A stretch of DNA of 64,000 nt from a virus (IMGVR_UViG_3300031718_000177), one strand, 5' to 3'. Positions 556-57,249 are shown, counted from the first letter of the stretch. Numbers and translations: made by a program. The notes: generated from the letters alone by a model not told the origin.

Positions 556-1218
556 TTACATAAGTTCTTCTAATTCTTCCCAATCTTTTTCATTTAAGTG
601 TTTCTTGGCTTCTGTTTTCCATGCGGCAGTTTTGACTTTTGCCATGAAGAGTTTATGCTTACCGCCATCAAACTTTGCGACTATGCCTTCGGGTATTGGT
701 TGTTTAATAGCGAACTTGCTTTGTAAGTTGATTGTATTGTCGATAACGCTTTGGATAAACGGCTCGTTGAATATCCCAACATAAACCTCTTGTGCGGTAT
801 GATAAAGATGACCAAACGTATCCATAAATTGTTTAGGCGGCATTAGCCCTTGCTTGTAAGGAACGCAATCAAAAATTACGAGATTTTTAGGGTCTTCCGA
901 ATCTGGGTAATGATGTCCAGAAAAGGATTTTTGGCCATACCATTCTCCGAAGAAGACTATCTGTTTCATACAGCGTAAGTACTTGTCCTTACGTATCACT
1001 TGCTCTAAACCATCAGCAAGCAGTTCGTGAAATAAGGGAATCACGCTACCAAAGTGTTTACTTGAAGAATCAAAAAGATTCTTGCGAGTTCCGAACATAC
1101 AGAAGCCACGCTTACGATCAAATAGGATACGGATATTGCTCCCATCTAATTTCAGTTGGGCTCGGCAATGCTGGTGCGGAGCACCACTTGGCCCTGGAAT
1201 ACTTGGATATTGACGCAC
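556..1218 (-). CDS. RNA ligase, Rnl2-like nucleotidyltransferase domain (ATP-dependent)
   Basis: Motif I KLDGSN (KxDGxN), motif III FFGEWYG, motif IV EGIVAKFD and motif V KHKLFMAKVK, in the canonical order of covalent nucleotidyltransferases. The N after the motif I Gly favours RNA over DNA ligase. Confidence 0.7.
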   Translation of the reverse strand: MRQYPSIPGPSGAPHQHCRAQLKLDGSNIRILFDRKRGFCMFGTRKNLFDSSSKHFGSVIPLFHELLADGLEQVIRKDKYLRCMKQIVFFGEWYGQKSFSGHHYPDSEDPKNLVIFDCVPYKQGLMPPKQFMDTFGHLYHTAQEVYVGIFNEPFIQSVIDNTINLQSKFAIKQPIPEGIVAKFDGGKHKLFMAKVKTAAWKTEAKKHLNEKDWEELEELM

Positions 1219-11719: not shown

Positions 11720-12760
11720 CTATGTCATCTTTTGGAATGTCACTATATCGCTATTACGTCGTGTTACCTGGACGTTACCAGGAAACGTGGCGGAACCACC
11801 ATCTCTAAAGAGATGATACATTTTTTGCCAATGTTCGCAAGTGAGTTTTCCAATCTCCCACTCCACTCCTTGCCAAAACTTAATCAGCACTTCTTTAGCA
11901 AGATAGGGATGTTGAGCCATAATGGGACCGGTGGGAAGTCTGTAGCTACCGTCCTTATATTGGTCTAGTTTTTTATCAAACATACGGTGGAGCACTTTTG
12001 ATACTTCTTTATCAATGAAATCCCTTACGTCCTCTGCTTGATTACCTAAGTTGGTTAAAGCTGATTTAACTTGAACGTTGTAATTACTTAATAGAGGCAA
12101 TAGCTCTTTTCTAATACGATTACGGGCATAATCCATTGAATCGTTGCTGGAATCGGTTCTAAAAGATTGTCCTTTAGATTCCAGATAAGATAACACTTCT
12201 TCTCGCGTACAGTTAAGCATCGGTCTAATGAGTTTAACATCATCATTTAACCAACGGATAGCTGGCATACCGGCAAGCCCTTTAACGCCAGTGCCGCGAA
12301 TAATACGAAATAAAATTGTTTCTGCTTGGTCATCTGCGGTATGAGCTACGGCTACATAGTCGCATTCGTGAATATCTGCCTCTTTCTCAAATGTTTTATA
12401 TCGGATATATCTCGCAGCTTCCTCGATACCATTACCGCGTTTTTCTGCTAATGCTTTAACATCGCAATCGACGATAACGCAACTTATTTTAAGATTGCTA
12501 CATAAATCTCCAACAAACCGGGCATCTTCATCTGATTCTTTGCCCCGTAGTTGATGATTGATATGGCAAGCGATTGGAGCAAGGCTATATTCGTCCCGTA
12601 GTTCATTTAAGGTAAGCAGCAAGGATACGCTATCGGCACCGCCAGATACGCCAACTAGGATTCTGCCGCCTGCAACTTCTGGCTGCATCGCATGCGGATC
12701 GCCTTCAATTTTATTCTCTTTCAAGAACTTATAAATCGGAAACAGCGTGTTCATGGTCAT
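11720..12760 (-). CDS. tilS: tRNA(Ile)-lysidine synthetase
   Basis: PP-loop ILVGVSGGADSVSLL (SGGxDS) and HINHQLRG block typical of TilS; 346 aa. Confidence 0.85.
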   Translation of the reverse strand: MTMNTLFPIYKFLKENKIEGDPHAMQPEVAGGRILVGVSGGADSVSLLLTLNELRDEYSLAPIACHINHQLRGKESDEDARFVGDLCSNLKISCVIVDCDVKALAEKRGNGIEEAARYIRYKTFEKEADIHECDYVAVAHTADDQAETILFRIIRGTGVKGLAGMPAIRWLNDDVKLIRPMLNCTREEVLSYLESKGQSFRTDSSNDSMDYARNRIRKELLPLLSNYNVQVKSALTNLGNQAEDVRDFIDKEVSKVLHRMFDKKLDQYKDGSYRLPTGPIMAQHPYLAKEVLIKFWQGVEWEIGKLTCEHWQKMYHLFRDGGSATFPGNVQVTRRNSDIVTFQKMT

Positions 12761-14226: not shown

Positions 14227-14514
14227 CTAGTAACCCCTTCCTGAAGTGTCTTGGTTGACGAAATTGTCAGGAACTTCGTCTTTCTTCAGTTTCTTGAACA
14301 GCAATTTTTTATATCCTTGTAATGCTGCAATCTCCTTGCGTGCTTCAGCAAGGTCTTTCACAAGTTTTGTATTTTCTTCTTGCTTCCTTTTTAATCTACT
14401 CTGGGCAAGTACAACTTTACCTTCGGTAAGCCGCAACTTTGCCTGTAGAGATTCCGTATCCAATAGTTCATCTATTGAAATACCGGCATCTGAGAGAGCA
14501 CGAATTACTTTCAT
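14227..14514 (-). CDS. coiled-coil protein
   Basis: 95 aa, heptad-like charged repeats. Confidence 0.45.
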   Translation of the reverse strand: MKVIRALSDAGISIDELLDTESLQAKLRLTEGKVVLAQSRLKRKQEENTKLVKDLAEARKEIAALQGYKKLLFKKLKKDEVPDNFVNQDTSGRGY

Positions 14515-16103
14515 TATACATGTTTACTAACTAGTGCAACATCCCTTAGAGGAAGACGGTGGTAAGCCGGAGCACCTGTTCTAGCGTAATAAATGCCGGG
14601 CTCGACTTCATCGATTCTCGAAACTACTACTGTATCGCCCTTGGATAAAAGAGTAGAGTTTTCTGGTTTCCAAGCACCCACAGTATTCTTCAACACCTTA
14701 ACTGTATCGCCGGGCTCAATGACTGGTTTCTTAGCACCTTTACTAACAAGTTCAACGTCGGTTAGAGGAAGCCAATTTTTACCAGTAGAAATATCGTACC
14801 AAATAGCATCTCTACTGCCCCAACCTGATTTGCCAAGACTTTTGACTACTACCGTAGGCCGCGAGCAGTTCTGCGCAGTCGCGCAGTGAAGCTCACGCGG
14901 CGAATTGCTTTCCAGTAACCTGGCGGCTAGAAAGCCGATCAAAACAGCTAGAGCACCTGCGATAATGTATGCAGTATCACCAGGTTTAAGCCGTTGTCGA
15001 AACGATATCAAAGCGCCCACATCATTCTTCAACACCTTAACTGTATCACCGGGCTCAATAACTGGTTTAACAGCTTTGCTAACAAGTTCAACGTCTGTTA
15101 GTGGCAAATAACATTCTGGGAGACCCGGATGAAGCGAATCGTACCATATACAATTTGGACCTGATTTCGTATAATACGCTTGACCGTCCGTTCTTTTAAC
15201 TATCACGGTGTCTCCGGGTTTAAGATGTTGATTTGTATCGTTTCGCCAAGCACTTACGTTATTTCTCAACACTCTAACGGTATCGCCGGGTTCAATGACT
15301 GGTTTTTCTGATTGCTTAACGGCTTTGCTAACAAGTTCAACGTCTGTTAGTGGAATGTATTGTTCGACATCAGCAGGAATCCTATTGCTATCATAGTGGA
15401 TTCTATCACCCGAAACTCTCTTGACCAGAATAGTATCGCCAGGAACACAGTTGCGACCATTTGGACTATTTGCGTCTTCCCAAGTATCTTTACATGTCCA
15501 AGCACTTACAATATTCCTCAGCACCCTAACGGTATCGCCAACTTCAATGACTGGTTTGACACCTTTGCTAACTAATTCAACGTCCTTTAAGAGAATGTAT
15601 TGTTCGACACCAGCAGGACTCCTATTGCTAGCGTAATAGATTTTATCAACCGAAACTCTCTTGACTAGAATAGTATCGTCAGGAACACAGTTGCGACCAT
15701 TTGGACTATTTGCGTCTTTCCAAGTATCTTTACATGTCCAAGCATTTACAGTATTTCTAAGTACTTTAACAGTATCACCGGGTTCGATGATTGGTTTATC
15801 TAGTTGTTTAGCGGCTAATTTCTGTAATCGCTCAACCTCAGTGTTAAGACGCTTAATCTCTCCATCTCTCTGTTGCACGACCGTTTTAAGTTCTTCATAA
15901 CGCTTTTTATCTATTTCAGCGTTATACTTCATATCTTGAACAAGTTGTGTAAGTTGCACTTTTTCTCGATAAACTTCTAAGTAAAGATTTGGGTCTATGG
16001 GCGGTTGTAGTGCGGCTAGACCCTCGGTAATATCTCGGTCAACTGACCTATCAATGATGGAAATAGGCAGTCCAATAATCGCTCTACCTAATTGCTTGAA
16101 CAT
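14514..16103 (-). CDS. leader-bearing repeat protein (6 tandem ~45-aa PGDTV(K/R)VL barrel-like repeats, one TM helix)
   Basis: N-terminus MFKQLGRAIIGLPI (leader family); coiled coil; repeats of ...IEPGDTVKVLRN...LTDVELVSK; hydrophobic segment TAYIIAGALAVLIGFLAARLL. Confidence 0.65.
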   Translation of the reverse strand: MFKQLGRAIIGLPISIIDRSVDRDITEGLAALQPPIDPNLYLEVYREKVQLTQLVQDMKYNAEIDKKRYEELKTVVQQRDGEIKRLNTEVERLQKLAAKQLDKPIIEPGDTVKVLRNTVNAWTCKDTWKDANSPNGRNCVPDDTILVKRVSVDKIYYASNRSPAGVEQYILLKDVELVSKGVKPVIEVGDTVRVLRNIVSAWTCKDTWEDANSPNGRNCVPGDTILVKRVSGDRIHYDSNRIPADVEQYIPLTDVELVSKAVKQSEKPVIEPGDTVRVLRNNVSAWRNDTNQHLKPGDTVIVKRTDGQAYYTKSGPNCIWYDSLHPGLPECYLPLTDVELVSKAVKPVIEPGDTVKVLKNDVGALISFRQRLKPGDTAYIIAGALAVLIGFLAARLLESNSPRELHCATAQNCSRPTVVVKSLGKSGWGSRDAIWYDISTGKNWLPLTDVELVSKGAKKPVIEPGDTVKVLKNTVGAWKPENSTLLSKGDTVVVSRIDEVEPGIYYARTGAPAYHRLPLRDVALVSKHV

Positions 16104-16504: not shown

Positions 16505-16622
16505 TGAAACACCTTTCTTTGAGAAAAAACTGACTGCCTATTATATAGGCATCTCCTTTAATAATTGCCCGCTTCCGAGTTGAACGGAAATCGCGAGGGT
16601 CAGAACCTCGTGTGTTAGCCAA

Positions 16623-16946
16623 TTACACCAACGGGCCACCATCATCCTCAAACCGCATAAGTTCGAGATTTTCCATATACCAATCAATCTTACTTTGTAT
16701 ATTAAAATAACAACTTAATAGATTATGTACACCTTTCCACGACTTTTGTTCTCTAATAGCAAATACCAACATATGGCTCGCGTCAATACCTATGATGTGC
16801 ATATGAAAAAACTTACCTATCTTCAGGTTCCGTTCTATGTAAATCTCAGCATCTTCTATTTCCTTGACGCGATATAACTTCCAAGATACATTCTTGTGAT
16901 AAACTCCCTTGTCATATTCGATTAAGGTAAGGCTAGATGCCGCCAT
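16623..16946 (-). CDS. hypothetical protein
   Basis: 107-aa ORF. Confidence 0.45.
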   Translation of the reverse strand: MAASSLTLIEYDKGVYHKNVSWKLYRVKEIEDAEIYIERNLKIGKFFHMHIIGIDASHMLVFAIREQKSWKGVHNLLSCYFNIQSKIDWYMENLELMRFEDDGGPLV

Positions 16947-17088: not shown

Positions 17089-17724
17089 TCAAGTCGCTGG
17101 GTGCGGATTTTGCTTTTTAAGTTCATCTAGCAGTTTGTCTTGTATCTCGCCGGTAAACTGCTTCTTTGCGTTTGATGCATCAATATTTAATTCTGAGTAA
17201 ATAACATCTAGAACTTCAAGTAAAGTATATTCTCTAGTTCCCTTAAACTTCGTAGTGGCATCAATCAACAATGAACTCTCTTTATCCAAGAGAACTTCCT
17301 TAGCTAGTAAGTTCCCAATAGAAATACCATCTAACGGGTAATCTATCTTATTACCATCAGTTCCCATAAAATTGATAGAACTCTCAAGCCAACTTCTGCC
17401 ATCATAAGCATTATGCTCAAAGTAAGAGCGAATGATAAGTTTATTGATATGCTCAGCACCAACATCAAGTTTATATTGATGAAACGCCTTCGCATCGCAC
17501 GATGTATAATCCGATATGAATTGAGTTAAGCCGTAATTCTCAACTATCTCGAATATGTCCCCAAGCGTAGTGCTTTGCTCTATTTCGCAAAATAATCTGA
17601 GTTTGCTTGTTACATTACTTTTACCGACAGGGATAAGTTTAATTTGCTTGTCTATCGGGTCGAACTCAAGCAATCCTCGCTTACTGAATATAATACAATG
17701 ATTAGTGAAGATGTTATCTGTCAT
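17089..17724 (-). CDS. hypothetical protein
   Basis: 211-aa ORF; ATGA overlap with the upstream gene. Confidence 0.5.
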   Translation of the reverse strand: MTDNIFTNHCIIFSKRGLLEFDPIDKQIKLIPVGKSNVTSKLRLFCEIEQSTTLGDIFEIVENYGLTQFISDYTSCDAKAFHQYKLDVGAEHINKLIIRSYFEHNAYDGRSWLESSINFMGTDGNKIDYPLDGISIGNLLAKEVLLDKESSLLIDATTKFKGTREYTLLEVLDVIYSELNIDASNAKKQFTGEIQDKLLDELKKQNPHPAT

Positions 17725-18314
17725 GGTCTTCTCAACGGATTTCCGCCTCTATAATAATACTCAATCAAATCATCCAAATCATCCAAAACTGTTGCGGCAC
17801 AATCTATTTCTTTGGCGCAAGACGGTTTAAGTACTGTTTTGCCACTAAGAAAATCCTTAAATATATCTCTGAGACGCCGCCTTCTAAAGTACTTAGATTG
17901 CTTTATAAGCTTATCTATATTCTTGGTATGACCGTAGCTAATGCCATCCTTTAGACAAGCGGTAAACATCGCTCGTCTAAACTTATTACATCGCCAGAAA
18001 TATGCCGGTTTGATACGAATGGCTTTTTGAGCATTCTTCTTTTTATTACTTACTATTATAGTAAACTTGGTTTTGTGTTTTAGGCGTAATTTATTCTCTA
18101 TGAAACGGATATACCGGATTATATTATCTACTTCCCGCGAGCGATTAGGTTTATAGCCAAAGGATTTAGTGTCTTTATCAAAGACATAATCGTGGGCGAA
18201 CTCTCTGCAATCGTCACAGTCGAAGTAATAACCGTCATCTTCCGCCCCTGGTAATTCTTCCATCTTGAAGAAACCAGATGCTTCTATTATTCCAATTCTT
18301 ACAATTCGTTTCAT
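17721..18314 (-). CDS. hypothetical protein (basic, Cys-containing)
   Basis: 197-aa ORF. Confidence 0.5.
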   Translation of the reverse strand: MKRIVRIGIIEASGFFKMEELPGAEDDGYYFDCDDCREFAHDYVFDKDTKSFGYKPNRSREVDNIIRYIRFIENKLRLKHKTKFTIIVSNKKKNAQKAIRIKPAYFWRCNKFRRAMFTACLKDGISYGHTKNIDKLIKQSKYFRRRRLRDIFKDFLSGKTVLKPSCAKEIDCAATVLDDLDDLIEYYYRGGNPLRRP

Positions 18315-22637: not shown

Positions 22638-22871
22638 TCACAACTTAAAATGTTTATTCTCGTAAATCAACCGCTTGCCTTTTTCTGGTCCTTCATCACC
22701 GTCAAGGACTTCAACTCTAATAATGGCTTGATAAGGCATATCTTTACGAGAATAAGGGTTCTCGCTCAACGCTTTAACAGCACTAGCGAAATCCCTGCAT
22801 CTTACTTTAAGATAAGCAGAAACTCTACGACCAGCCCGAGATAAATAGACAATTCTAGTGATGACTTGCAT
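22638..22871 (-). CDS. hypothetical protein
   Basis: 77-aa ORF. Confidence 0.4.
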   Translation of the reverse strand: MQVITRIVYLSRAGRRVSAYLKVRCRDFASAVKALSENPYSRKDMPYQAIIRVEVLDGDEGPEKGKRLIYENKHFKL

Positions 22872-23760
22872 TTCTCTCCTTCATTATCTCGTCATAAGCC
22901 TCTCCAACTTCCTTGAATCTTTGTATCGCCCCAGGACTCTTGTTAAGGTCTGGATGGTGCCTACGGCGAAGTTGTTTGTACCTTTTAGTAAGTTCTTCAG
23001 TTGATATGGTTCTCTTAACATCAAGAACCTTATAGTAATCTTTGGTGAGCAACCGCCACGCAGCCGGACGACTAAAGACATAATACCATCCATGTACAGC
23101 ATTTACAAGGTCATCGTGGGCGAAATCCGTATATCCATCAAGAAACCTCTCAAACGCCTGTCTCGTATCCCTCAGATAAGACATTGACAGACATTCCTCA
23201 AAGTTATCGTATCTCACTGAATACGATAATCCTACTCTCAGTAGGATGGTAAATAGCGATATACGAAACCGACGCTGCGTCCAAAACGGCGATATTCTCA
23301 TTCGTATAACACCGGGAACATCAATAGGATTAAATACTGTTTTTTTAATCTTTAATCTTGTTTCTACTTGGTCAATAAAGTATGCTACCGATTGAAATAA
23401 CTTTCCTGTTTCGATGTCCTTGTTAGTACCTAGTGTGAATAATAATCTTTCTTGTTTTATTTTAGAATTAAACCATGCTTTAAGGAATTGTTCCCGACTT
23501 CTATAAAATGTTTTAGAGTCAATAAGAGTAGCATACGCTCCTTTTAATTTGCCTATATCTGGATTTTTGCTCTTCCATTTAAGATTATTACCAAACTTCG
23601 GATGGGTTATATGCCATGCTTCTTTTGTGAGCGTTATTTTGTAGTTCTTGTAGAGAGTATGGATAAAAACAGCACCATCCTTGATTTCTGCCGAGATAAT
23701 ACCTGGATTGTCCCTAACTCCTGCATTACGTAGTAATTCAGCAGCAACTTCCTTCTCCAT
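22855..23760 (-). CDS. J-domain protein fused to a member of the W-x2-S-x-LRR...TALLK family
   Basis: C-terminal DnaJ J-domain with HPD (DYYKVLDVKRTISTEELTKRYKQLRRRHHPDLNKS…); central RISPFWTQRRFRISLFTILLRVGLSY aligns with three paralogs elsewhere. Confidence 0.7.
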   Translation of the reverse strand: MEKEVAAELLRNAGVRDNPGIISAEIKDGAVFIHTLYKNYKITLTKEAWHITHPKFGNNLKWKSKNPDIGKLKGAYATLIDSKTFYRSREQFLKAWFNSKIKQERLLFTLGTNKDIETGKLFQSVAYFIDQVETRLKIKKTVFNPIDVPGVIRMRISPFWTQRRFRISLFTILLRVGLSYSVRYDNFEECLSMSYLRDTRQAFERFLDGYTDFAHDDLVNAVHGWYYVFSRPAAWRLLTKDYYKVLDVKRTISTEELTKRYKQLRRRHHPDLNKSPGAIQRFKEVGEAYDEIMKERNASHH

Positions 23761-23797: not shown

Positions 23798-26700
23798 CTA
23801 TATTCGTCTTTCATATGCTATATTCTCCGTAAGCGAAACTCGAACGTGGTTAGGAGGTAATAACTTGGTAATCTTACCACGACGCATACCGTTAACCAAA
23901 AACTCATCACCCACCTTGAAGCCGCGAAGTTCTTTAGGAACTTCCTCGTCGTAATGTTCAACGTCACTGGCGAAAAACGACAGGCCCGGATTTCCTTCTC
24001 CAAATGACAGTGACCGGACATATAAAACATCTCTTTGCCTATTACCATTAGTAGAAGGTGCTATCTCAGTAATATCTCCGATACAACCTTTACGATTACC
24101 TCGTATAATTCTAACTTTATCACCAACCCCGAATGTTGAAGATTTCTCGTGTTCCAGAAGATCTATATTTACAAAAGCATGGCTTCCACTGCCAAGCATA
24201 ATATCAACCGTTTCTCCACCAATCTTCCAAATCGTTCCGCTTAAAGCACCTTTCGCATAATTTACAAAATCTCCAGCCTTGAACTTGCTGGGCAGTGTCT
24301 CTCCCTCTGCAAGGTTCGTTTCATCAACATGCTGTAAGCGTTCAAGTCCTACTGGTGAATCGTAATCCCAGGATGGATTGCCACGATCCGCAATAAAGCG
24401 TTTCAGGCCGGTAGCAACACCAACCTTGTACTCTAACACACCGTTATTATATGTTCCTTCGCTACCAGAGTAATCAGTGCTGTGAAGCGGGGCATAATGT
24501 CCCTCTCTTTTGATATTGGCTTGACCATTAGTAATTCCTATAATAGTGCCTCGCCATACTGCTACGCCAGGACATGAAGAAAACCTAACTCTATCGCCAA
24601 CCTTGAATGTAGTATAGTTATCGGGAAGTTTGACAAGTTCCTTAAACGGAAAAGGATATCGAGTGTTTGTGATTTCCGTTTCTTGAGCGGCCTGTAGGAC
24701 TGCAATTCTTTCGGCTCCAGCCAGATGCCCAGCATTGTATATGTCGCATATCTTACCGCAGCATGTTCCTTTGTAATCTCTTACCGTGTCTCCGATCTTG
24801 AATTGTTCTTTATGAGGAACAGGCGGTTTCTCTCGCTCTAATTTATCGTAAGGGCAAGGGATATTTACAAGGCTGCCCTCGGTATTTACTTCGATATATG
24901 CCAAATTATCATATGGTCCACTCTTTCCCCTGTTTTCAATACTCCGAAGGATACCCCTGTATGTCTTACCGTTTGACGTATATTGCACCCTTTCGCCAAT
25001 GGCCGGTCGGAAGATAGGTAATGTCTTTGTCTTTTCTGGTTGTTTCGTTAGAAAATCAACCTCAATATAGTCACTAGGGGCAGAATGCTCATACTCGTGA
25101 GGGCCAAAATACGCCATCGCAGTACTGTAAGCCATCTTTCCAAAAGAAAGAATAGGACGATATTCTTTATGGCAAGCACTTTTAGCCATATCGCCAATAT
25201 GGAAAGTGATGTTGTGTTTATTGGTGGCAACTACAAGTTTGTCTACATTGTCTGGCTTCGGTTGTTTCTCTAAAATATCAATGTCGCTTCGATATTCCCG
25301 AAAATTGCCTATTTGTTGATCACCTTCGGTTCTAATAGCAATTATTTGTTCGCCAATATGCTCAAAACGCTTGATGGGGAGCCAACCAGGATAGTCAGAT
25401 TTCGCACGAACCATATCACCAACAGTGAAGGTAATGCCACGTTCATTGATAGCAGTTGTAAGTTTATCTTCGTTGTCTGGTTGTTTCTCAACCAACTTTG
25501 TAATATCAGTATTTTCGTGAACTACGTTATCCGCCAACCAATAACCATCTCCTTTTATTCCAACCTCGTTTCTTCCATCAGGGAGTAGAGTTTCTACTGT
25601 AAAACCATAACCCATTTCTTTACCATTAAAGTGCCTCACTCTATCACCGACCTTGAATACTTGTCCATATTTATTAGGTTTAGTAGTAGTTGGCTTTTCC
25701 TCTTTCACTGCATTGTTAGCCAAGCAAGATATGGTTTTGCCGGTGAGAGGTTCGGTAGGGTGAGTTTCATAATGAAATATAACTATCGCACCCTTCGAAC
25801 CGCGTCCAAATCCTTTAATCTCTTGATAACCAGCCATCATTGATAAATCGCGACGAGCCATATCACCAATGCGGAAATGGACACCTTGCTTGTTTATGAC
25901 TTCTGTAATTTTTTCGTTCGGATCATATTTAACTGTCTCTCCGGTCTCGAATGCAGACCAGCCGTCATTCGCCGGAATAACTGGTTTGGGCAACTCTTCG
26001 TGCTTGGAATAATCGCCTACCCGAGTTATATTAACATCTCCAGTTAGGCCATCTCGAATGTCCGCAGCAGTCAAATACTCTGTAAAGCCATCTCTATCTG
26101 GTTTGGGTTCAGGAGGAGGATATTGGGCGAACTTTGACGGGACATTATTTTGCTTTACAACAAATGCTTGTAGTTTTTCGTATTCAGTTTTCCAGTAATC
26201 ACGGTCTTTCGTCAATATTCCATATTCTCTTTTCCAGGTGATATCACGCTTCTTAAAAAGATCAAGTTCCATTCTGTCAAGTTCCATCTTCGCTGCTTCA
26301 TACGATAATCCTTCTGTATGTTGATGTTGAACATCAGCCACCGCTTTATTTGTCGCTTGTATAACCTTATTGGTTTCATTGAACTTCTCTAGTATAGCGA
26401 AGGAATACCAAGATGATACAGGGCAAAGGCCGCGACAAAGTGCCACTTTTTTTCCAAATCGCTCCGCTATTTCTTTGATTTCCATTTTATTAACTTCAGT
26501 ATGCTCCTCGCCCTTGAAGACAACATAATTGCCAACTTGGAATTCACTGGTTTCACTTTCGTCAAGGGCAAGAAGCTGTTTTTTAAGATGATCGTCTATT
26601 ACTATCTTATTACCATCGACAACAACATGATCCCCGACCTTGAAAAGAGGCGTAGGTTTGGCGTGTTGTAAATAACGAACATTGTAAAATCCACTCAAAC

Positions 26701-27484
26701 CACTTAATTTAGCTCCTGTATCAGAGCCCCACTTATTTGGAGTCAATGATTCTATCTTGTGGGTCTCAGTGGGATCGTGGCCATTGTAGGATAAACGTTC
26801 ATTCCTAACCGTAACTTCGTCCCCAACCTTGAATTCACTACCATCAGACGTAGCGACATTGTTATACGAAACGACACCAACCTCAACCGGCTGGAACTTA
26901 TTCCGTAATTCATCTCCTAGAAGATTAGCACACCTTTTACTATGAAAACGGACGGCCTGCCGATAATCAGAATGCCATGTTGAATCTTTCGTCCAGTAGA
27001 ATACTCCGTCCGCAATCTGTCCTTTTTCATTACGTCGTATAATCCAATCTTGAGGACAATTCGCACCGTTAGACTCTTTGGACTTCTCTAAATTATTAGT
27101 ATGTACGTTCCACTCTATCCCGTTATCATCAACGCAATACGCTACATTACCCATCGGATTAAAACTCTTGATAGTTACATTTATTGGTTCTGAATGGACA
27201 GAACGTAGCCAATCGTGAGTGTGTCTGAAGTGAGCAACAACTTTATCCCCAACCTTGAATGGTTCATAAACATCATACTTCGGATTGGGGTCTAAGCCCA
27301 CTTCCTTACACCTACTATTTATCTGCTCCACAAAGTCAGCAAAGCCGATAGGGTCAGATGGCAGAGCCTTACCACAGGTATAGGGATATACAAAAGACAT
27401 TGGTTTAAGGGACATATCGACCTTGCCGTGTTCAACTTTCCTAATTGGCAATCCAGCAATCGCTTTGACTAGGTTTCTAAACAT
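23798..27484 (-). CDS. giant leader-bearing repeat protein (1228 aa) with 13 or more F-[KR]-[VI]-G-D-x-V SH3/KOW-like repeats
   Basis: N-terminus MFRNLVKAIAGLPI; repeats FKVGDKVVAHF, FKVGDEVTVRN, FKVGDHVVVDG, FRIGDMARRD, FKVGDRVRHF, FTVGDMVRAK, FKIGDTVRDY, FKVGDRVRFS, FKAGDFVNYA, FGVGDKVRII, FKVGDEFLVNG. Confidence 0.7.
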   Translation of the reverse strand: MFRNLVKAIAGLPIRKVEHGKVDMSLKPMSFVYPYTCGKALPSDPIGFADFVEQINSRCKEVGLDPNPKYDVYEPFKVGDKVVAHFRHTHDWLRSVHSEPINVTIKSFNPMGNVAYCVDDNGIEWNVHTNNLEKSKESNGANCPQDWIIRRNEKGQIADGVFYWTKDSTWHSDYRQAVRFHSKRCANLLGDELRNKFQPVEVGVVSYNNVATSDGSEFKVGDEVTVRNERLSYNGHDPTETHKIESLTPNKWGSDTGAKLSGLSGFYNVRYLQHAKPTPLFKVGDHVVVDGNKIVIDDHLKKQLLALDESETSEFQVGNYVVFKGEEHTEVNKMEIKEIAERFGKKVALCRGLCPVSSWYSFAILEKFNETNKVIQATNKAVADVQHQHTEGLSYEAAKMELDRMELDLFKKRDITWKREYGILTKDRDYWKTEYEKLQAFVVKQNNVPSKFAQYPPPEPKPDRDGFTEYLTAADIRDGLTGDVNITRVGDYSKHEELPKPVIPANDGWSAFETGETVKYDPNEKITEVINKQGVHFRIGDMARRDLSMMAGYQEIKGFGRGSKGAIVIFHYETHPTEPLTGKTISCLANNAVKEEKPTTTKPNKYGQVFKVGDRVRHFNGKEMGYGFTVETLLPDGRNEVGIKGDGYWLADNVVHENTDITKLVEKQPDNEDKLTTAINERGITFTVGDMVRAKSDYPGWLPIKRFEHIGEQIIAIRTEGDQQIGNFREYRSDIDILEKQPKPDNVDKLVVATNKHNITFHIGDMAKSACHKEYRPILSFGKMAYSTAMAYFGPHEYEHSAPSDYIEVDFLTKQPEKTKTLPIFRPAIGERVQYTSNGKTYRGILRSIENRGKSGPYDNLAYIEVNTEGSLVNIPCPYDKLEREKPPVPHKEQFKIGDTVRDYKGTCCGKICDIYNAGHLAGAERIAVLQAAQETEITNTRYPFPFKELVKLPDNYTTFKVGDRVRFSSCPGVAVWRGTIIGITNGQANIKREGHYAPLHSTDYSGSEGTYNNGVLEYKVGVATGLKRFIADRGNPSWDYDSPVGLERLQHVDETNLAEGETLPSKFKAGDFVNYAKGALSGTIWKIGGETVDIMLGSGSHAFVNIDLLEHEKSSTFGVGDKVRIIRGNRKGCIGDITEIAPSTNGNRQRDVLYVRSLSFGEGNPGLSFFASDVEHYDEEVPKELRGFKVGDEFLVNGMRRGKITKLLPPNHVRVSLTENIAYERRI

Positions 27485-29613: not shown

Positions 29614-30303
29614 TCAATCCTTTGGCGTCTCTCTTTCTGCTTGTTCCCAAAACTCTTTATCTCTACCGAAGGGCTTACCATTGGCTTCCCAAATGTAATA
29701 CGCTTTTTCTCTTATCTTCGGTATTAAGGGATTAACAAGGCGATCCCAGTTTAGTTTATACTGCATATGCCATTGCCAACTGTATTTAGTGGTAAAAAGT
29801 GCATGTCCTGTTTTGAGTGGCGGATCGTTGTTGAGTTCAGTACAGCCGCCAAGGAACTTGTGCAGAGCCGGAACGGAAGCTGAAAAGTATATCGAAGCTC
29901 CGCACGCTGTATCAAAATCACCAACAGGATGATACAATCCAGCTTTCAATAAAGCAGTATATACTGACCTACGTAATAGTGAAGAACGCCACCAAGCGGG
30001 TACATCTATCGCTATCATGTATGTCTGTTTACCACTCGTTCCTAAAAGGTGAGCTACATTGAACACACTCCTATTTCTAAGTCCAAGTCGCTCTTCTGCT
30101 TCCCTAACGAGTCTTACAGAACTATCTGGATTAGCCGAAGCGTATCCTAAAAATATTCTTTTTTCTGCGCCATCCCATATGCTAAGGAAGCCCTCGCGAC
30201 AAAGGCTATAGGCACCGTGATAATCAACAACTCGCTTATATAGTCCCCCATGTTGAGCCAAATTACTGTCTATAAATGGAACCTCTATATCAATAGCATT
30301 CAT
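29614..30303 (-). CDS. member of the W-x2-S-x-LRR...TALLK paralog family
   Basis: IDVPAWWRSSLLRRSVYTALLKAGLYH; the upstream LVREAEERLGLRNRSVF block aligns with 49032..49607 and 32792..33358. Confidence 0.55.
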   Translation of the reverse strand: MNAIDIEVPFIDSNLAQHGGLYKRVVDYHGAYSLCREGFLSIWDGAEKRIFLGYASANPDSSVRLVREAEERLGLRNRSVFNVAHLLGTSGKQTYMIAIDVPAWWRSSLLRRSVYTALLKAGLYHPVGDFDTACGASIYFSASVPALHKFLGGCTELNNDPPLKTGHALFTTKYSWQWHMQYKLNWDRLVNPLIPKIREKAYYIWEANGKPFGRDKEFWEQAERETPKD

Positions 30304-30313
30304 ACCTTACCCT

Positions 30314-30610
30314 TTATAAGATTTCTTTCTGAAACGCGTTACATAGTATGGCGAAAACTGTGTATCCAAGCGATATTGCGAATGTGTATTGCCAAGGCCA
30401 CGCAAACATCAACCATATTGCTAAGCCAACAGTAGCCATACCCATCAATGTTTGTAAGAACAAGTAGCACAATCCAAATAGTATCACGCCACCTTCACCA
30501 CACCACATCAGAACTAACGGGATGCCGCATGCAAGCCAATTCCAGCCGTATCCAATAGTGTAGAATACATCAAGTAAGCCGGTATCGTCCCACCTTTCCT
30601 TATACTGCAT
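30314..30610 (-). CDS. small membrane protein
   Basis: 98 aa, multi-TM, Trp-rich. Confidence 0.45.
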   Translation of the reverse strand: MQYKERWDDTGLLDVFYTIGYGWNWLACGIPLVLMWCGEGGVILFGLCYLFLQTLMGMATVGLAIWLMFAWPWQYTFAISLGYTVFAILCNAFQKEIL

Positions 30611-30666
30611 GGTTTTCTATTCTACCGTCTTATTTCGGGTTAGCAAGTTTCACGCCGCTAATGAGT

Positions 30667-30969
30667 TTACATCCACTTCGGAAGTTTATCCCATACCCAT
30701 AACGCTCTAACTAAAACAATAAAGGAGAGTACTATCGCTGCGATTAACCTCGCATGCAGCGTACAAAATGGATTCATACATATAAGCATAGGAATTGAAA
30801 TTATAATCATTGCCACAATGAATCGCCACGGGTCTTGCAACTTGGCATACGCCCTAAAGAATGAGTTAAACATTGAAACCAACCTCCTGAAAAAGTAACT
30901 AACTTTTCTTTTTCGGATCATCCAACGGTTTCTTGTTCGGTGGACACTTTTTCCTTTGCCCAGAATCAA
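30667..30969 (-). CDS. small membrane protein
   Basis: 100 aa, 2 TM. Confidence 0.45.
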   Translation of the reverse strand: MILGKGKSVHRTRNRWMIRKRKVSYFFRRLVSMFNSFFRAYAKLQDPWRFIVAMIIISIPMLICMNPFCTLHARLIAAIVLSFIVLVRALWVWDKLPKWM

Positions 30970-31051
30970 TCACTTCTGTTATCGCTTTATATCGACCTTT
31001 ATTGCTTTTATCCCTTAAAGATTTCCTAATACTACTACGGTCTAACATCGT

Positions 31052-31465
31052 TTAACCTATCACCACTTTAGAAAGAAGATGGAAAGCACCGCCTACCACC
31101 TTTAGTGGTGTCTTGAGTCCCAAAGTATATACGACATATAGCGGGGTAAATAGGAGAGCAACACCATTTGCAATCGTCTCAAACTTATCTCCCTTCATCG
31201 TTTTTCTAATGTTTTCAAGAGATTCTTTATCAGTCATATACCGCACTACCCCATCAGGAGAAACATTCTTACCTGTGAGAACAGAGTTCATCCGAACGAG
31301 GAATTGCCGCCCGAACACTATAATTGACATCACGTAGGCAACCGCCCAAGCCGTATGACTATGAACCAATTGACTAACCGTGATATCTTGGTGTAAAGCA
31401 TTCTGAACAAACTGTTGCAAATGTTGGATATCCATTGCTTTCTTCCTTTGACAAAAAGAGAACAA
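31052..31465 (-). CDS. membrane protein
   Basis: 137 aa. Confidence 0.45.
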   Translation of the reverse strand: MFSFCQRKKAMDIQHLQQFVQNALHQDITVSQLVHSHTAWAVAYVMSIIVFGRQFLVRMNSVLTGKNVSPDGVVRYMTDKESLENIRKTMKGDKFETIANGVALLFTPLYVVYTLGLKTPLKVVGGAFHLLSKVVIG

Positions 31466-31477: not shown

Positions 31478-32518
31478 TTACTCGGCAACTTTCTTTTCTG
31501 GTTTCGCCAGATGATGACGTGGAACATTATTTCCATCCAACTTTACACTGGCATCGTTTAATATCAAGGGCAAACCATTACCGCTACCGCCGATAACAAT
31601 GATTTTCGCATTCGGAGAGTCGGCTAACAGTGTAGTGGCTTCAATGCCCTTCCACAATAGCAACTTGTCGCTAATGCCTTCCATAACAATCTTCTGGAAC
31701 TTCTGAATGCCGTTGGCTTCAATAACCTTACGGTCAGCTTCAAGAGATTCTTTCTTCAAGCGGAAAGTCATCGCTTGAGCCTCTTGATCGGCACTAACTT
31801 TCTTTTCGATCGCTATCTTTACAGTATCGGGAACATCTACTTTACCAATTAGGACTTCTGGCACAGAGATAACTTCAGTCGGAGCATCCTTATATCGCTC
31901 GACAATCTTTCTAACTTCCGCGTCTATATTCTTCTTGATGGTTTCTGCTAATTCTCCACGTTTGCCGCCAGTGGTAACATCACTCGAATAACATTCATGG
32001 TCGGTATATTTCGCAACAGCATCGGTTACAGCACTGCGAGCGGCCGGACGCACTAGTTTATCAATATACTCGCTGCCGAAGTTCTCATAAACCCACGGAG
32101 CAGAAGATTCTACGAGCCGATAGGGAATGCTAATTTCAAGATGCATTTGCATACCGTTGCTACTCATAGCAATAACGGAATCATTCCCTGGCTTTGCTCC
32201 CTCATTATCGTTCGGACTCATACGATAGTTGTCGGTTCTCACGGACATTTCATCCACAAAACAAAGCGGGTTGATTAAGTGCAATCCAGCGTGCAATGGC
32301 TCGTGATAGACATGCCCAAACAGCACTTGAACAGCCGTGTTACCGGCTTTAACAGTTACAATGCCTGATAAGAGACACAATAAGAATCCGAAACCAGCAG
32401 CACCTACCGCATACTTCCTGAGTGGAACAGCCCCTTTTGCACCTTGCGGAGCAAGGAAACGAATCGCAGCATATGCGAAAGCCGCACAACAAAGAACGAA
32501 AAAGCCGAGCCAAAACAT
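31478..32518 (-). CDS. SPFH/band-7 (prohibitin/HflKC-like) membrane protein
   Basis: N-terminal TM, then an SPFH core with a coiled-coil tail (AQAMTFRLKKESLEADRKVIEANGIQKF…; …NAKIIVIGGSG). Confidence 0.65.
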   Translation of the reverse strand: MFWLGFFVLCCAAFAYAAIRFLAPQGAKGAVPLRKYAVGAAGFGFLLCLLSGIVTVKAGNTAVQVLFGHVYHEPLHAGLHLINPLCFVDEMSVRTDNYRMSPNDNEGAKPGNDSVIAMSSNGMQMHLEISIPYRLVESSAPWVYENFGSEYIDKLVRPAARSAVTDAVAKYTDHECYSSDVTTGGKRGELAETIKKNIDAEVRKIVERYKDAPTEVISVPEVLIGKVDVPDTVKIAIEKKVSADQEAQAMTFRLKKESLEADRKVIEANGIQKFQKIVMEGISDKLLLWKGIEATTLLADSPNAKIIVIGGSGNGLPLILNDASVKLDGNNVPRHHLAKPEKKVAE

Positions 32519-32791: not shown

Positions 32792-33358
32792 TTAACCAAC
32801 CTTTGCACCGTTCGGCTTCCTTAGCTGTTTCCAAGTGTCTTGATAATGAAATGTATCGACCCAACCGTACCAAACATTCGAGCAAATCGTATAACCTTGT
32901 AGGAATCTATTAAATGCCTTGTTTGTATTCCCCCCGCCGATATAAGGCAAACCAATTATCTTCTTGTTCTTATAATACCTGCCGCCTTTAATAATAGCAG
33001 ACAAAAGGCTCATTCGTAACGGCGATCTTCGCCAAAACGGAGATACTTTTATTATCATAATGTTGTTATAGCCATAATAATAGTGCGTGTAAGTCGATTT
33101 CTCTTTAAGTTTGAGTCTCCTCTCGCAATAGATTAGTAATCTCTTTATATTGCAAGACATCGCATAAGAGCAAGACCATCCTATTCTAGCTTTGGAAGCA
33201 TAGGAAGCAGCAAACCCCTCTCGGCAGCCACCCATACTAGTAAAACGTCTTCCATCATAATTCCAAAATGAGTCGCCATAAACACCAGCACAAGCTATAT
33301 TCTTTATTCGCAGTGACTTTCGTTTAATCTTCCGCTTTGTTGGCTTTCGCTTTTTCAC
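32792..33358 (-). CDS. member of the W-x2-S-x-LRR...TALLK paralog family
   Basis: VSPFWRRSPLRMSLLSAIIKGGRYY; LLIYCERRLKLKEKSTY block; very basic N-terminus. Confidence 0.55.
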   Translation of the reverse strand: MKKRKPTKRKIKRKSLRIKNIACAGVYGDSFWNYDGRRFTSMGGCREGFAASYASKARIGWSCSYAMSCNIKRLLIYCERRLKLKEKSTYTHYYYGYNNIMIIKVSPFWRRSPLRMSLLSAIIKGGRYYKNKKIIGLPYIGGGNTNKAFNRFLQGYTICSNVWYGWVDTFHYQDTWKQLRKPNGAKVG

Positions 33359-48547: not shown

Positions 48548-48735
48548 GTATAACCCATCTCATAATCGTCCCATTGTACCCGAAAGCTCCTGAGTTCGAT
48601 TTTGACGACCTTCCCAAAAATGCCATGATAGCAAGCCGTATATCCCGGTTCAGGCCAGATTCGCTTAATACGGCAATCTTCAACAGTGTCGCCAACTACA
48701 AGTGGGAGCATCTTAACTTTCCTTTGGTTAACCAA
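48472..48735 (-). CDS. hypothetical protein (start probably the internal MLPLVVGDT)
   Basis: Repeat-borne RBS AAGGAAAGTTAAGATG. Confidence 0.4.
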   Translation of the reverse strand: MVNQRKVKMLPLVVGDTVEDCRIKRIWPEPGYTACYHGIFGKVVKIELRSFRVQWDDYEMGYTWDFFGPGWIEKRDSKELRCQPKKN

Positions 48736-49031: not shown

Positions 49032-49607
49032 TTAACTTTCCTTTGGTTCGTACAAGGTTCCCCAACGCTCTTTCTGTCCCTGCATATAACACTTCCAATT
49101 AGCGCGACTGGTGAATGTTAGCGTAGAAGCTGTTTTACCAGATAAAAACATTTCTAGGGCAGGATACGATCCCCAAAAATAACCAGCTTTACACGCATAC
49201 CTGAAAGGCAATCTTGTATGCTGGTAGCCACTTTTCAACAAGGCAGTAAATACACCCTTCCGCAGCATTGATTGCATCCAGAAATCGGCTACATGGATAC
49301 TCAGTACAGTTATAGGTTTGTGTATACCGCACTTCAATTTCACCAATAAGAAGGTAGTTTTGTCTTTAAGGTTTAGTTTCTTTTCTGCGTGAACAATAAG
49401 ACGAATAACTCTTTGTGGATTTTTCCCCCCGTAGGTAAAATATATATCGGGGTTATCAAAGTGACTATGAAATGTTTCTCTACAATGGAAGATAAATAAC
49501 GAGTTTTCAAGCGAAGTACAAAACCGTCCCCACTTTCGTATGTCGGCCGCCATATATGCTACGTTCTTTTCGGTGATTTCTAGTTTGGAGAAGGGAGACC
49601 ACATCAC
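49032..49607 (-). CDS. member of the W-x2-S-x-LRR...TALLK paralog family
   Basis: IHVADFWMQSMLRKGVFTALLKSGYQH; RLIVHAEKKLNLKDKTTF block. Confidence 0.55.
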   Translation of the reverse strand: MMWSPFSKLEITEKNVAYMAADIRKWGRFCTSLENSLFIFHCRETFHSHFDNPDIYFTYGGKNPQRVIRLIVHAEKKLNLKDKTTFLLVKLKCGIHKPITVLSIHVADFWMQSMLRKGVFTALLKSGYQHTRLPFRYACKAGYFWGSYPALEMFLSGKTASTLTFTSRANWKCYMQGQKERWGTLYEPKES

Positions 49608-53910: not shown

Positions 53911-54127
53911 GTAAGTATATATCTATACTAACTTTAATTTTCTTCTCGGCTTAGGAACAAAATTACCCTAATCACAATCAGGAAAGTTTAAGTAACACCC
54001 TTGTCCTCCTGTAAATCCCGCACTATCAGTTCCCTTATTTTCTCGCTAACCGTCTTGTATTCCTTTTTACACTTTTTTTCCAATTTCTCAAAAAGAGAGG
54101 GTTGTATCACAACCGAAATTAACCGTG

Positions 54128-54156
54128 TTGTCAGTTCTTTCTTCATATACTATAAT
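54128..54156 (+). promoter_or_regulatory. sigma70-like promoter TTGTCA-17-TATAAT for the plus-strand module
   Basis: ttgtcagttctttcttcatatacTATAAT in the divergent intergenic region. Confidence 0.5.
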
Positions 54157-54190
54157 ATAGTATCTCAAAACGAAAATTAAGAAAAAATTA

Positions 54191-57179: not shown

Positions 57180-57249
57180 CTTGAGGTGAGCACCCCAATC
57201 GTATGCTGAAAATGACGAAAACCGACGAATTGCGGTTATGATTGGGGAA

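What the first reader, a model, noticed from the sequence alone, without database searches (positions are those of the whole stretch)
22855..23760. Four-member paralogous family (W-x2-S-x-LRR-x3-TALLK-x-G core), one copy fused to a DnaJ J-domain
The core RISPFWTQRRFRISLFTILLRVGLSY (22855..23760) aligns with IDVPAWWRSSLLRRSVYTALLKAGLYH (29614..30303), VSPFWRRSPLRMSLLSAIIKGGRYY (32792..33358) and IHVADFWMQSMLRKGVFTALLKSGYQH (49032..49607). A second block, (L/V)x(R/H)xAE(E/K)(R/K)L(G/N/K)L(R/K)x(R/K), precedes it. I cannot assign this family to a known domain. Four copies scattered across about 27 kb is unusual for a phage. The J-domain (HPD present) on one copy implies recruitment of host DnaK/Hsp70 to whatever this domain does. 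The architecture suggests host-takeover or anti-defence factors.
Basis: partly seen in the sequence, partly recalled or inferred. Interest (0 to 1): 0.7.

Follow-up and report, generated by a model that had tools for sequence, protein, structure and literature searches.

The report
Undescribed basic protein family of large phages
The window holds five (not four) diverged copies of a strongly positively charged ~180-residue protein domain found so far only in metagenomic contigs that look like large phages and absent from every annotation library searched; one copy is fused to a DnaK-recruiting J-domain, and its function is unknown but is most likely nucleic-acid-associated.

Summary
All four ORFs exist. 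A fifth paralog lies at 17721-18314 (-), and a sixth lies on the same 292,671-bp contig outside the window. An HMM built only from 147 external sequences recovers exactly these five window ORFs (E 1e-29 to 1e-38; next best 0.79). The J-domain (HPD intact) on copy A and a DUF2934 tail on copy B are confirmed.

The domain is very basic (median net charge +12). It has invariant C-R-[ED], E, W and F positions, occurs as tandem-fused doublets, and sits beside DnaE polymerase in one diverged phage clade.

My best guess (about 0.35) is a dimeric nucleic-acid-binding accessory factor. The anti-defence reading is untested and not favoured.

The parts
17721..18314 (-). Core domain only.
   Evidence: BLASTP against copy D 2.5e-8. 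External-only HMM E 1.1e-29. Identical to P0005 from the exhaustive search.
22855..23760 (-). Copy A: 301 aa, made of a subfamily-specific N-terminal extension, the core domain and a C-terminal J-domain. It is the only one of 153 members with Ser in place of the otherwise invariant Cys (SRE instead of CRE).
   Evidence: HMM E 8.5e-39.
23047..23583 (-). Core domain of copy A (about residues 60-238). It abuts the J-domain with no linker: the family's terminal L-x-K-P motif becomes L-T-K-D, where J-domain helix I begins.
   Evidence: HMM alignment boundaries and the sequence itself.
22873..23046 (-). J-domain of copy A (residues 239-296): helices I-III with an intact HPD motif.
   Evidence: Pfam PF00226 E 1.2e-14, profile positions 1-56 of 63. 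PDB 9dyv_A DnaJ2 E 1.3e-12 with HPD aligned.
29614..30303 (-). Copy B: 229 aa, core domain plus a C-terminal DUF2934.
   Evidence: External HMM E 7.3e-29.
29629..29718 (-). DUF2934 module of copy B (residues 196-225).
   Evidence: Pfam PF11154 E 3.6e-12, 46.2 bits against a cut-off of 22. A standalone 61-aa DUF2934 gene occurs in another family-carrying phage contig, L040.
32792..33358 (-). Copy C: 188 aa, core domain with a Lys/Arg-rich N-terminal tail. It lies 274 bp upstream of an SPFH/Band_7 gene (31478-32518).
   Evidence: External HMM E 3.7e-32.
49032..49607 (-). Copy D: 191 aa, core domain only. This is the protein that was modelled (pLDDT 91.2). It lies downstream of a 104-aa ORF and an AAA+ ATPase (49921-51012).
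   Evidence: External HMM E 4.4e-30.

Best explanation
The five window ORFs, plus a sixth elsewhere on the contig, are old, diverged paralogs of an undescribed domain family of about 180 residues. The family has so far been found only in metagenomic contigs that look like large phages.

I propose that the domain is a basic accessory module that binds nucleic acid, most likely DNA. I propose that it works as a dimer or oligomer within the phage's replication and transcription apparatus, and that the paralogs are specificity variants.

Copy A joins this module directly to a J-domain. On this reading it would recruit host (or phage) DnaK/Hsp70 to whatever complex the module binds. Known parallels are CbpA (J-domain plus DNA binding) and the DnaJ/DnaK remodelling of the lambda O-P-DnaB complex.

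Shown here: the paralogy, the family's size and its restriction to viral contigs, its positive charge, its conserved positions, the fused doublets, the J-domain, and the synteny with DnaE in one clade.

Inferred, not shown: nucleic-acid binding, dimerisation, a role in replication or transcription, and DnaK recruitment.
For: - Charge. The median pI is 9.75, and 88% of 153 members are above pI 8. The conserved domain alone has a median net charge of +12 over 174 columns. Nine basic columns are conserved: 43, 77, 83, 116, 117, 125, 148, 153 and 187. R117, T121 and R125 are spaced i, i+4, i+8 on the best-conserved helix, so they would share one face.
- Fused doublets. Covalently fused two-domain forms recur in P0006, P0007, P0028, L033 and L035. 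This is the usual signature of a domain that works as a dimer.
- DnaE synteny. In six IMG/VR loci the gene sits in a conserved block: AAA+ ATPase, phrog_23621, DnaE-type Pol III alpha (phrog_405, E 1.7e-132), a ~165-aa ORF, the family gene, and then a metallopeptidase and a DHH phosphoesterase in the loci annotated in detail. Gene order is kept although DnaE is only 55-69% identical and the family protein 36-73% identical, apart from one close pair, L009-L011.
- Other DNA and transcription genes nearby. DnaE fragments lie 1.5 and 6.5 kb away in L023. An ATP-dependent DNA ligase lies 1.1 kb away in L003 and an NAD-dependent ligase 2.2 kb away in L014. RNase H is near the gene in L015 and L039. 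Sigma-factor genes lie within 1.4-2.5 kb in L012, L022 and the window. An HTH_17 gene lies immediately upstream in L022.
- Old paralogs. The six copies are not a single recent expansion. Copies A, C and E each have closer relatives in other phages, which fits long-standing subfunctionalisation.
- The J-domain is canonical.
Against: - The six DnaE-syntenic loci are one clade, so they amount to roughly one independent observation.
- DNA-metabolism genes are common in large phages. Finding one within 2.5 kb is therefore not strongly significant, and I did not compute an enrichment statistic.
- Other contexts are heterogeneous. They include amidoligases, Band_7, ClpX/ClpP/Cpn10, CoaE and lysozyme.
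- The invariant C-R-[ED], E75 and W110 look as much like an active or ligand-binding site as like a scaffold.
- Six copies per genome is odd for a dedicated replisome part.
- Positive charge alone also fits ribosome-binding proteins or virion-internal proteins.
Confidence: 0.35

Rival explanations
1. Anti-defence or host-takeover effectors. Each paralog binds and neutralises a different host protein or defence system, and the J-domain copy hands a host target to DnaK for remodelling.
For: - The family has so far been found only in viral contigs, with none in 185,579 cellular species genomes by two motif scans.
- It is multi-copy, with highly diverged paralogs at 23-36% identity, scattered among ORFans in a region of early or accessory-type genes.
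- There is a precedent: the phage RB43 J-protein Rki acts on a host factor through DnaK (PMC3486835).
- L040 has an Acb1 anti-CBASS gene 5 kb away.
Against: - The gene keeps a stable syntenic position in a replication module across a clade whose DnaE is only 55-69% identical.
- The paralogs are old and each has orthologue-like relatives in other phages, so there is no sign of rapid turnover.
- Invariant core residues persist across 153 very diverged members.
- There is no match to a known anti-defence family.
- The J-domain occurs in only 1 of 153 members.
Confidence: 0.2
2. An enzyme. On this view the domain is a minimal or degenerate relative of the carboxylate-amine ligase fold (glutamine synthetase, PafA, Dop, YbdK, Amidoligase_2), or a new Cys-dependent enzyme, that modifies proteins or nucleic acids.
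For: - In L005, 3-4 tandem family copies sit inside an island of Amidoligase_2, COOH-NH2_lig and Peptidase_C26 genes. A third Amidoligase_2 match among the neighbours is probably the ORF 3.6 kb upstream of the family gene in L014. That ORF scored only E 1e-4 in a local search.
- Peptidase_C26/GATase also lies near the gene in L040.
- C42, R43, E/D44, E75 and W110 are 98-100% conserved.
Against: - The domain is about half the size of a ligase catalytic domain.
- Only two acidic columns are conserved, and both lie in predicted helices. Canonical ligases have a cluster of metal-binding Glu residues on beta-strands (the ligase feature is from my own knowledge of the superfamily).
- hhalign of the family profile against the L005 COOH-NH2_lig and Amidoligase_2 proteins gives probability 0.05.
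- No His, no P-loop and no nucleotide-binding Gly-rich motif is conserved.
- The amidoligase association is essentially one locus, L005, plus a weak one.
Confidence: 0.15
3. A proteostasis adaptor. The domain is a protein-binding (client or localisation) module that works with chaperones and proteases, and the J-domain fusion reveals the family's general partner system.
For: - Copy A is a J-domain fusion.
- A full-length DnaJ gene lies 5.4 kb away in L022.
- A ClpX-like AAA+ gene and Cpn10 lie 1.3-2.3 kb upstream in the 511-kb contig, L019/L020.
- ClpP lies 0.4 kb upstream in L040.
- SPFH/Band_7 genes lie near the family gene in three contexts: window copy C at 274 bp, L019/L020 at 2.7 kb, and L040 at 3.9 kb, where the Pfam hit is faint.
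- Large phages are known to carry DnaJ and DnaK genes (PMC12619734).
Against: - Apart from the fusion, the associations are loose (kilobases apart) and each occurs in a minority of loci.
- The strongly conserved positive charge is not typical of client-binding domains.
- The J-fusion is unique, and it sits on the one copy that lacks the conserved Cys.
Confidence: 0.12
4. Virion-internal or DNA-condensing basic proteins, packaged with the genome. The comparison is with the paralogous inner-body and internal head proteins of giant phages.
For: The proteins are very basic. They form a multi-paralog family in very large phage genomes. That paralogous internal head protein families exist in phiKZ-like phages is my own knowledge and was not checked here.
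Against: - No member has a PHROGs or Pfam structural hit.
- The gene lies in a replication module, not a morphogenesis module, in the DnaE clade.
- No structural genes were recognised around any window copy.
Confidence: 0.08

Closest known systems
J-domain proteins with a non-canonical partner domain: E. coli CbpA (J-domain plus DNA binding), DjlA (C-terminal J-domain), phage RB43 Rki (PMC3486835), SV40 large T antigen (J-domain plus origin-binding domain)
   Same: Copy A has a canonical J-domain, with helices I-III and HPD (Pfam 54.6 bits; PDB E 1.3e-12), joined to a different domain that presumably defines the target. Rki is a precedent for a phage-encoded J-protein.
   Different: - The partner domain is unrelated to any known J-protein client or localisation domain.
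- The J-domain is C-terminal and abuts the core without a Gly/Phe linker.
- No zinc-finger or C-terminal substrate-binding domains are present.
- Only 1 of 153 family members examined has the fusion.
Carboxylate-amine ligase fold superfamily (glutamine synthetase, Pup ligase PafA, depupylase Dop, YbdK/GCS2, Pfam Amidoligase_2)
   Different: - The domain is half the size.
- The canonical acidic metal-binding residues are not conserved.
- Profile comparison gives probability 0.05.
- The family is strongly basic.
Pfam DUF2934 (PF11154)
   Same: The C-terminal 30 residues of copy B match above the gathering score. A standalone DUF2934 gene occurs in another family-carrying phage contig, L040.
   Different: DUF2934 is itself uncharacterised: five papers mention it, and the four listed did not appear from their titles and abstracts to be about its function. 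It covers only the tail of one copy, not the family core.
BFVD model A0A6J5LH58 (uncharacterised protein, uncultured Caudovirales phage, 228 aa)
   Same: It is the best viral structural match: Foldseek E 0.014, probability 0.97, TM 0.50/0.44. It may be a very distant relative.
   Different: It is not significant at E 1e-3, has 8% identity, rmsd 7.6 A and no annotation.

Membership tests
J-domain (DnaJ/Hsp40, Pfam PF00226), copy A C-terminus only | Profile match above the curated threshold | tested here: met
   54.6 bits against a cut-off of 27.8, E 1.2e-14, residues 241-295, profile positions 1-56 of 63. 38 PDB J-domains match at E up to 1e-3.
J-domain (DnaJ/Hsp40, Pfam PF00226), copy A C-terminus only | His-Pro-Asp tripeptide between helices II and III | tested here: met
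   The sequence ...RRRHHPDLNKSP... aligns with ...ARQYHPDVNKSP... of Thermus DnaJ2.
J-domain (DnaJ/Hsp40, Pfam PF00226), copy A C-terminus only | Stimulates the ATPase activity of an Hsp70/DnaK partner | not testable with these tools
   This needs biochemistry.
Carboxylate-amine ligase superfamily (GS, PafA, Dop, Amidoligase_2) | Significant structural similarity to the catalytic domain | tested here: inconclusive
   [not shown]
Carboxylate-amine ligase superfamily (GS, PafA, Dop, Amidoligase_2) | Conserved cluster of acidic metal- and ATP-binding residues on the beta-sheet | tested here: not met
   Only two acidic columns (44, 75) are conserved among 153 members, and both lie in predicted helices.
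Carboxylate-amine ligase superfamily (GS, PafA, Dop, Amidoligase_2) | Sequence or profile similarity to family members | tested here: not met
   No Pfam hit in 67 members. hhalign against the L005 COOH-NH2_lig and Amidoligase_2 proteins gives probability 0.05. The comparison was against single sequences only, not against the Pfam profiles.
   [not shown]
   [not shown]
DUF2934 (PF11154), copy B C-terminus only | Profile match above the curated threshold | tested here: met
   46.2 bits against a cut-off of 22, residues 196-225.
The new family itself (operational definition) | A domain of about 180 aa with C-R-[ED]-x-F, then E-x2-L, then [FW]-W-x5-[RK]-[RK]-x-[LF]-F-T-x-L-L-[RK]-x-G, then Y, then A-x3-F-L-x-G-x-T, then G-W-x3-F | tested here: met
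   All five window ORFs score E 1e-29 to 1e-38 against the external-only HMM. Copy A has S for the C.

The most novel reading that the evidence does not exclude
The domain is a new catalytic fold. It could be a drastically minimised offshoot of the glutamine-synthetase/PafA carboxylate-amine ligase architecture, or something unrelated to any known enzyme. It would use the invariant Cys-Arg-Glu/Asp triplet and Glu75 to modify DNA, RNA or proteins, and it would be exclusive to large lytic phages.

On this reading the multiple paralogs are enzymes with different substrates. The J-domain copy, the only member with Cys replaced by Ser, would be a catalytically altered, binding-only version that hands the shared substrate to DnaK.
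Probability: 0.12. Interest if true: 0.8.

Novelty: categorically new. Interest (0 to 1): 0.5.

Why it matters
This is a large protein family: at least 1,138 clusters at 50% identity, 675 of them at E up to 1e-10. It is missing from Pfam, PHROGs, NCBIfam and the PDB. tblastn with three members also found none in the 50,697 deposited phage genomes. It is therefore a sizeable piece of viral dark matter that current annotation pipelines cannot name.

The family is seen only in metagenomic contigs that look like large or huge phages. It is often multi-copy. In one clade it is fixed next to the replicative polymerase.

If it proves to be a DNA- or RNA-binding or replisome-associated factor, it would define a new accessory component of DnaE-type phage replication or transcription. 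If it is an enzyme, it would be a new fold and chemistry.

The J-domain fusion gives a concrete experimental handle (DnaK recruitment). The confident AlphaFold model and the short list of invariant residues make the family directly testable.

'Categorically new' here means new at the level of protein family and possibly fold. It is not a claim of a new biological principle. Undescribed families are common in huge phages, which is why the interest score is moderate.

Tried and rejected
- Pfam, PHROGs and NCBIfam scans of the four ORFs and of 67 family members. Only the J-domain and DUF2934 appendages hit.
- PDB sequence and profile searches found nothing for the core.
- Megablast of 17 kb of the window, and tblastn of three different family members, against 50,697 deposited phages found no match. 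tblastn of the 501-aa neighbour found none either.
- The word-indexed homolog search returned almost only self hits or unnamed hypothetical proteins.
- The first AlphaFold model, built from 5 sequences, was poor (pLDDT 72). It was replaced by a 67-sequence model (pLDDT 91.2).
- AFDB50 Foldseek was not available.
- Sequence relationship to amidoligases. hhalign probability was 0.05, and the amidoligase genes proved essentially confined to L005. I kept this only as a low-probability rival.
- 'An AAA+ ATPase upstream is a conserved partner.' The window AAA+ and the L007 AAA+ are not orthologous (E 0.19). Rejected.
- 'A zincin metallopeptidase downstream is a conserved partner.' The window SprT-like protein and the L007 PhageMetallopep show no similarity. 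Rejected.
- The conserved DnaE-clade neighbours (the ~165-aa and ~200-aa ORFs) have no counterparts in the window.
- No other paralog family in the window travels with the copies.
- The search for related loci with the 67-sequence alignment failed because the alignment was too diverse. It worked with an 11-sequence sub-alignment.
- A literature search for DUF2934, for multi-copy families in huge phages and for the sample accession found nothing informative.

Full report
**1. The observation**

- A: 22855-23760, 301 aa
- B: 29614-30303, 229 aa
- C: 32792-33358, 188 aa
- D: 49032-49607, 191 aa

They align over about 180 residues, with both quoted motif blocks in register. BLASTP within the window's own 689 six-frame ORFs gives B-D 6e-24, A-C 4e-8, B-C 2e-6, C-D 5e-6 and A-D 2.5e-5. 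A and B are linked only transitively.

It scores 2.5e-8 against D. An HMM of the five finds no sixth copy in the window.

The cleanest test uses an HMM built only from 147 family members from other genomes. It picks out exactly these five ORFs at E 8.5e-39 to 7.3e-29, and the next best ORF scores 0.79. By BLAST clustering this is the largest paralog group in the window.

A sixth copy (P0009, 217 aa) lies on the same assembled contig, ena:ERZ27256860:k141_3387926 (292,671 bp). It is about 95 kb outside the window.

**2. The appendages**

Copy A ends in a canonical J-domain. Pfam DnaJ gives E 1.2e-14, 54.6 bits against a cut-off of 27.8. The Thermus DnaJ2 J-domain matches at E 1.3e-12 with HPD aligned.

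The J-domain begins exactly where the family's terminal L-x-K-P motif would be, so there is no linker.

Copy B ends in a DUF2934 module (E 3.6e-12). Another family-carrying phage contig, L040, has a standalone 61-aa DUF2934 gene 3.4 kb from its family gene.

Copy A and its nearest relative P0008 share a subfamily-specific N-terminal extension.

**3. The family**

The word-indexed search returned only self hits. The exhaustive HMMER search of 1.84 billion cluster representatives found 1,138 proteins at E up to 1e-3 and 675 at E up to 1e-10.

Most members are standalone proteins of 180-240 aa. A few are tandem-fused doublets of 390-495 aa: P0006, P0007 and P0028, plus further ones in L033 and L035.

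None of 67 sampled members matches any Pfam, PHROGs or NCBIfam model in the core. PDB profile searches are empty. Sources call the proteins only 'hypothetical protein'.

tblastn with three different members finds nothing in 50,697 deposited phage genomes.

Two motif-based scans of 185,579 bacterial and archaeal species genomes gave no true member. The patterns recognise about 16-20% of known members. They retrieved 8 and 11 loci in IMG/VR; the eight were confirmed by tblastn, and two of the three new contigs in the second scan were confirmed by HMM.

Members sit on contigs of up to 340, 436 and 511 kb. On present evidence the family is virus-restricted and absent, or very rare, in prophages. 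These contigs look like phages by size and gene content, but no capsid or terminase gene was identified here.

**4. Sequence and structure**

Across 153 members, using copy D numbering, conservation is as follows:

| Position | Conservation |
|---|---|
| C42 | 152/153 |
| R43 | 153/153 |
| E/D44 | 152/153 |
| E75 | 150/153 |
| W110 | 153/153 |
| R/K125 | 153/153 |
| F154 | 153/153 |
| R116, T121, Y143, A150, G157, T159, G170-W171 | each above 85% |

The single Cys exception is copy A, the J-domain fusion, which reads SRE.

The proteins are strongly basic. The median pI is 9.75 and the median net charge is +16. The domain columns alone have a median net charge of +12, with nine conserved basic columns.

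With a 67-sequence alignment, AlphaFold2 gives a confident model of copy D: pLDDT 91.2, pTM 0.89. It has a small antiparallel sheet with packed helices, followed by a helical C-terminal half.

Foldseek against viral models gives nothing below E 0.014. AFDB50 was unavailable.

**5. Genomic context**

Six IMG/VR loci share a conserved block. It runs AAA+ ATPase, phrog_23621, DnaE-type Pol III alpha, a ~165-aa ORF, the family gene and a ~200-aa ORF. A phage metallopeptidase and a DHH phosphoesterase follow in the loci annotated in detail.

Apart from one close pair (L009-L011), DnaE is 55-69% identical in this clade and the family protein 36-73% identical. The gene is therefore a stable module component there. 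This clade counts as roughly one independent observation.

Other contexts:
- DnaE fragments lie 1.5 and 6.5 kb away in L023.
- DNA ligases of two different classes lie 1.1 and 2.2 kb away in L003 and L014.
- RNase H is near the gene in L015 and L039.
- Sigma-factor genes lie within 1.4-2.5 kb in L012, L022 and the window.
- An HTH_17 gene lies immediately upstream in L022.
- An island of Amidoligase_2, COOH-NH2_lig and Peptidase_C26 genes surrounds 3-4 tandem family copies in L005.
- Chaperone and protease genes are nearby: ClpX-like and Cpn10 in L019/L020, ClpP in L040, and a full DnaJ in L022.
- SPFH/Band_7 genes are near the family gene in the window (274 bp from copy C), in L019/L020 and, faintly, in L040.

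Candidate conserved partners were tested and rejected. These were the AAA+ ATPase, the metallopeptidase, the clade-specific neighbours and any co-travelling paralog family. I did not compute a formal enrichment, and DNA-metabolism genes are common in large phages.

**6. Evolution of the copies**

The six copies in this genome are not one recent burst. Copies D, B and P0009 form a small clade with P0030, which lies on a second contig (127,770 bp) from the same sample. That contig also carries P0008.

Copy A groups with P0008, P0011 and P0017, none of which has a J-domain. Copies C and E have their nearest relatives in other phages. The neighbour-joining tree is weak at 25-35% identity, but best BLAST hits agree with it.

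Several old subfamilies therefore co-exist in one genome, and the J-domain is a recent, single acquisition.

**7. Interpretation**

The evidence that carries most weight is:
- the conserved positive charge of the domain itself;
- the recurrence of covalently fused doublets;
- the fixed position beside the replicative polymerase in one clade;
- the repeated, though loose, proximity to DNA-metabolism and transcription genes;
- the long-term retention of diverged paralogs.

My best explanation (confidence about 0.35) is a dimeric nucleic-acid-binding accessory factor of phage information processing, with the paralogs as specificity variants. On this reading copy A brings DnaK to the bound complex, in the manner of CbpA or of DnaJ/DnaK acting on the lambda replication complex. 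Those two comparisons rest on my own knowledge of the systems. Nothing here demonstrates binding.

The rivals are:
- an anti-defence or host-takeover effector family (0.2). The synteny and the old paralogy count against it, but it is not excluded;
- a proteostasis adaptor (0.12);
- a packaged basic virion protein (0.08).

**8. Novelty and score**

At the level of protein family, and possibly fold, this is undescribed and lies outside every library I could query. I therefore rate it 'categorically new', with the caveat that unnamed families are the norm in huge phages and the function is unknown.

The family's size, its restriction to viral contigs, its multi-copy habit, the DnaE synteny and the J-domain handle make it a worthwhile target. 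None of these is yet a surprising mechanism. Interest: 0.5.

Noticed in passing
window 23798-27484 (-); also 36918-38861 (-), 14514-16103 (-), 48472-48735 (-): The 1,228-aa ORF immediately upstream of copy A contains at least 11 copies of an F-[KRQ]-[VI]-G-[DN]-x-V motif. It gives weak Pfam hits to SH3-like folds (R67 DHFR_2). The same motif occurs 3 times in the 647-aa ORF (weak DUF1918 hit), and once each in the 529-aa ORF (weak NfeD hit) and in a small 87-aa ORF. This is a second repeat or paralog family in the window, of unknown function.
   Followed up: partly
window 22855-23760 (-), residue 88 of copy A: The J-domain-fused copy is the only one of 153 family members in which the otherwise invariant Cys of the C-R-[ED] motif is replaced, here by Ser. 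If the Cys is functional, the fused copy is the functionally altered one.
   Followed up: partly
window 31478-32518 (-); L019/L020 13645-14847; L040 12667-13725: An SPFH/Band_7 gene lies 274 bp downstream of copy C. Band_7 genes also lie 2.7 kb and 3.9 kb from family members on two unrelated contigs, although the L040 Pfam hit is faint. Small membrane-protein ORFs (30314-31465) lie downstream of the window's Band_7 gene.
   Followed up: partly
window 62260-63480 (-): A TnpB/IS605 OrfB-type protein of 406 aa (HTH_OrfB_IS605, OrfB_IS605 and Cas12f1-like TNB domains). Similar TnpB genes also lie near the family member on the 511-kb contig (L019/L020). I did not look for an omega-RNA.
   Followed up: no
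window 11720-12760 (-), 16564-16638 (-), 556-1218 (-), 55643-56287 (+): Translation and RNA-related auxiliary genes are present: a TilS-like PP-loop ATPase (E 4e-56), tRNA-Gln(CTG), an Rnl2-type RNA ligase, and an adenylate kinase. The kinase was placed at this ORF by its P-loop motif. The same contig outside the window encodes a MetRS-like tRNA synthetase (L017). The sister contig encodes a ribosome recycling factor (L003). This gene content is typical of 'huge phages'.
   Followed up: partly
window 47279-48547 (-): A 422-aa protein contains six CxxC motifs. Its sequence shows a repeated segment, roughly 'T-[YF]-[DE]-E-[GS]-G-[RQK]-G-[RK]-K-x-C-x2-C', which looks like a zinc-ribbon array. It has no significant Pfam or PHROGs hit.
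   Followed up: no
window 52115-53014 (-): A 299-aa protein has a weak Sigma70 region 2 match (E 1.1e-3, below the Pfam threshold). It lies 2.5 kb upstream of copy D and may be a divergent phage sigma factor.
   Followed up: partly
window about 53900-57200: A block of + strand genes (54642-57179) interrupts the otherwise uniform - strand coding. GC skew changes sign over about 54-60 kb. This may be a module boundary or an origin/terminus-like switch.
   Followed up: no
L005 1572-17542 (jgi 3300081887 Ga0672970_0000226): A dense island holds three Amidoligase_2 paralogs, five paralogs of an unannotated ~210-310-aa family, a COOH-NH2_lig gene and a Peptidase_C26 gene. The 3-4 tandem copies of the family studied here are embedded in it. 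It is a possible peptide-ligation or modification system.
   Followed up: partly
L007 4664-7429 and orthologues in L008-L013: In L007 the phage DnaE-type polymerase (922 aa) matches the Pfam DNA_pol3_alpha profile only from profile position 100, starting at residue 84. It therefore appears to lack the N-terminal PHP domain. Two of the neighbouring proteins scanned matched Intein_splicing, probably the longer 1,138- and 1,317-aa versions in L011 and L010. In L023 DnaE is split into PHP-containing and finger-containing ORFs.
   Followed up: no
P0019, P0041, P0082, P0112, P0146, P0150 (family members from other metagenomes): One subfamily carries a conserved extreme C-terminal tail that ends in [LI]-W-x-COOH after a short hydrophobic stretch. 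It resembles the short C-terminal docking peptides used to bind sliding clamps or other hubs. None of the window copies has it.
   Followed up: no
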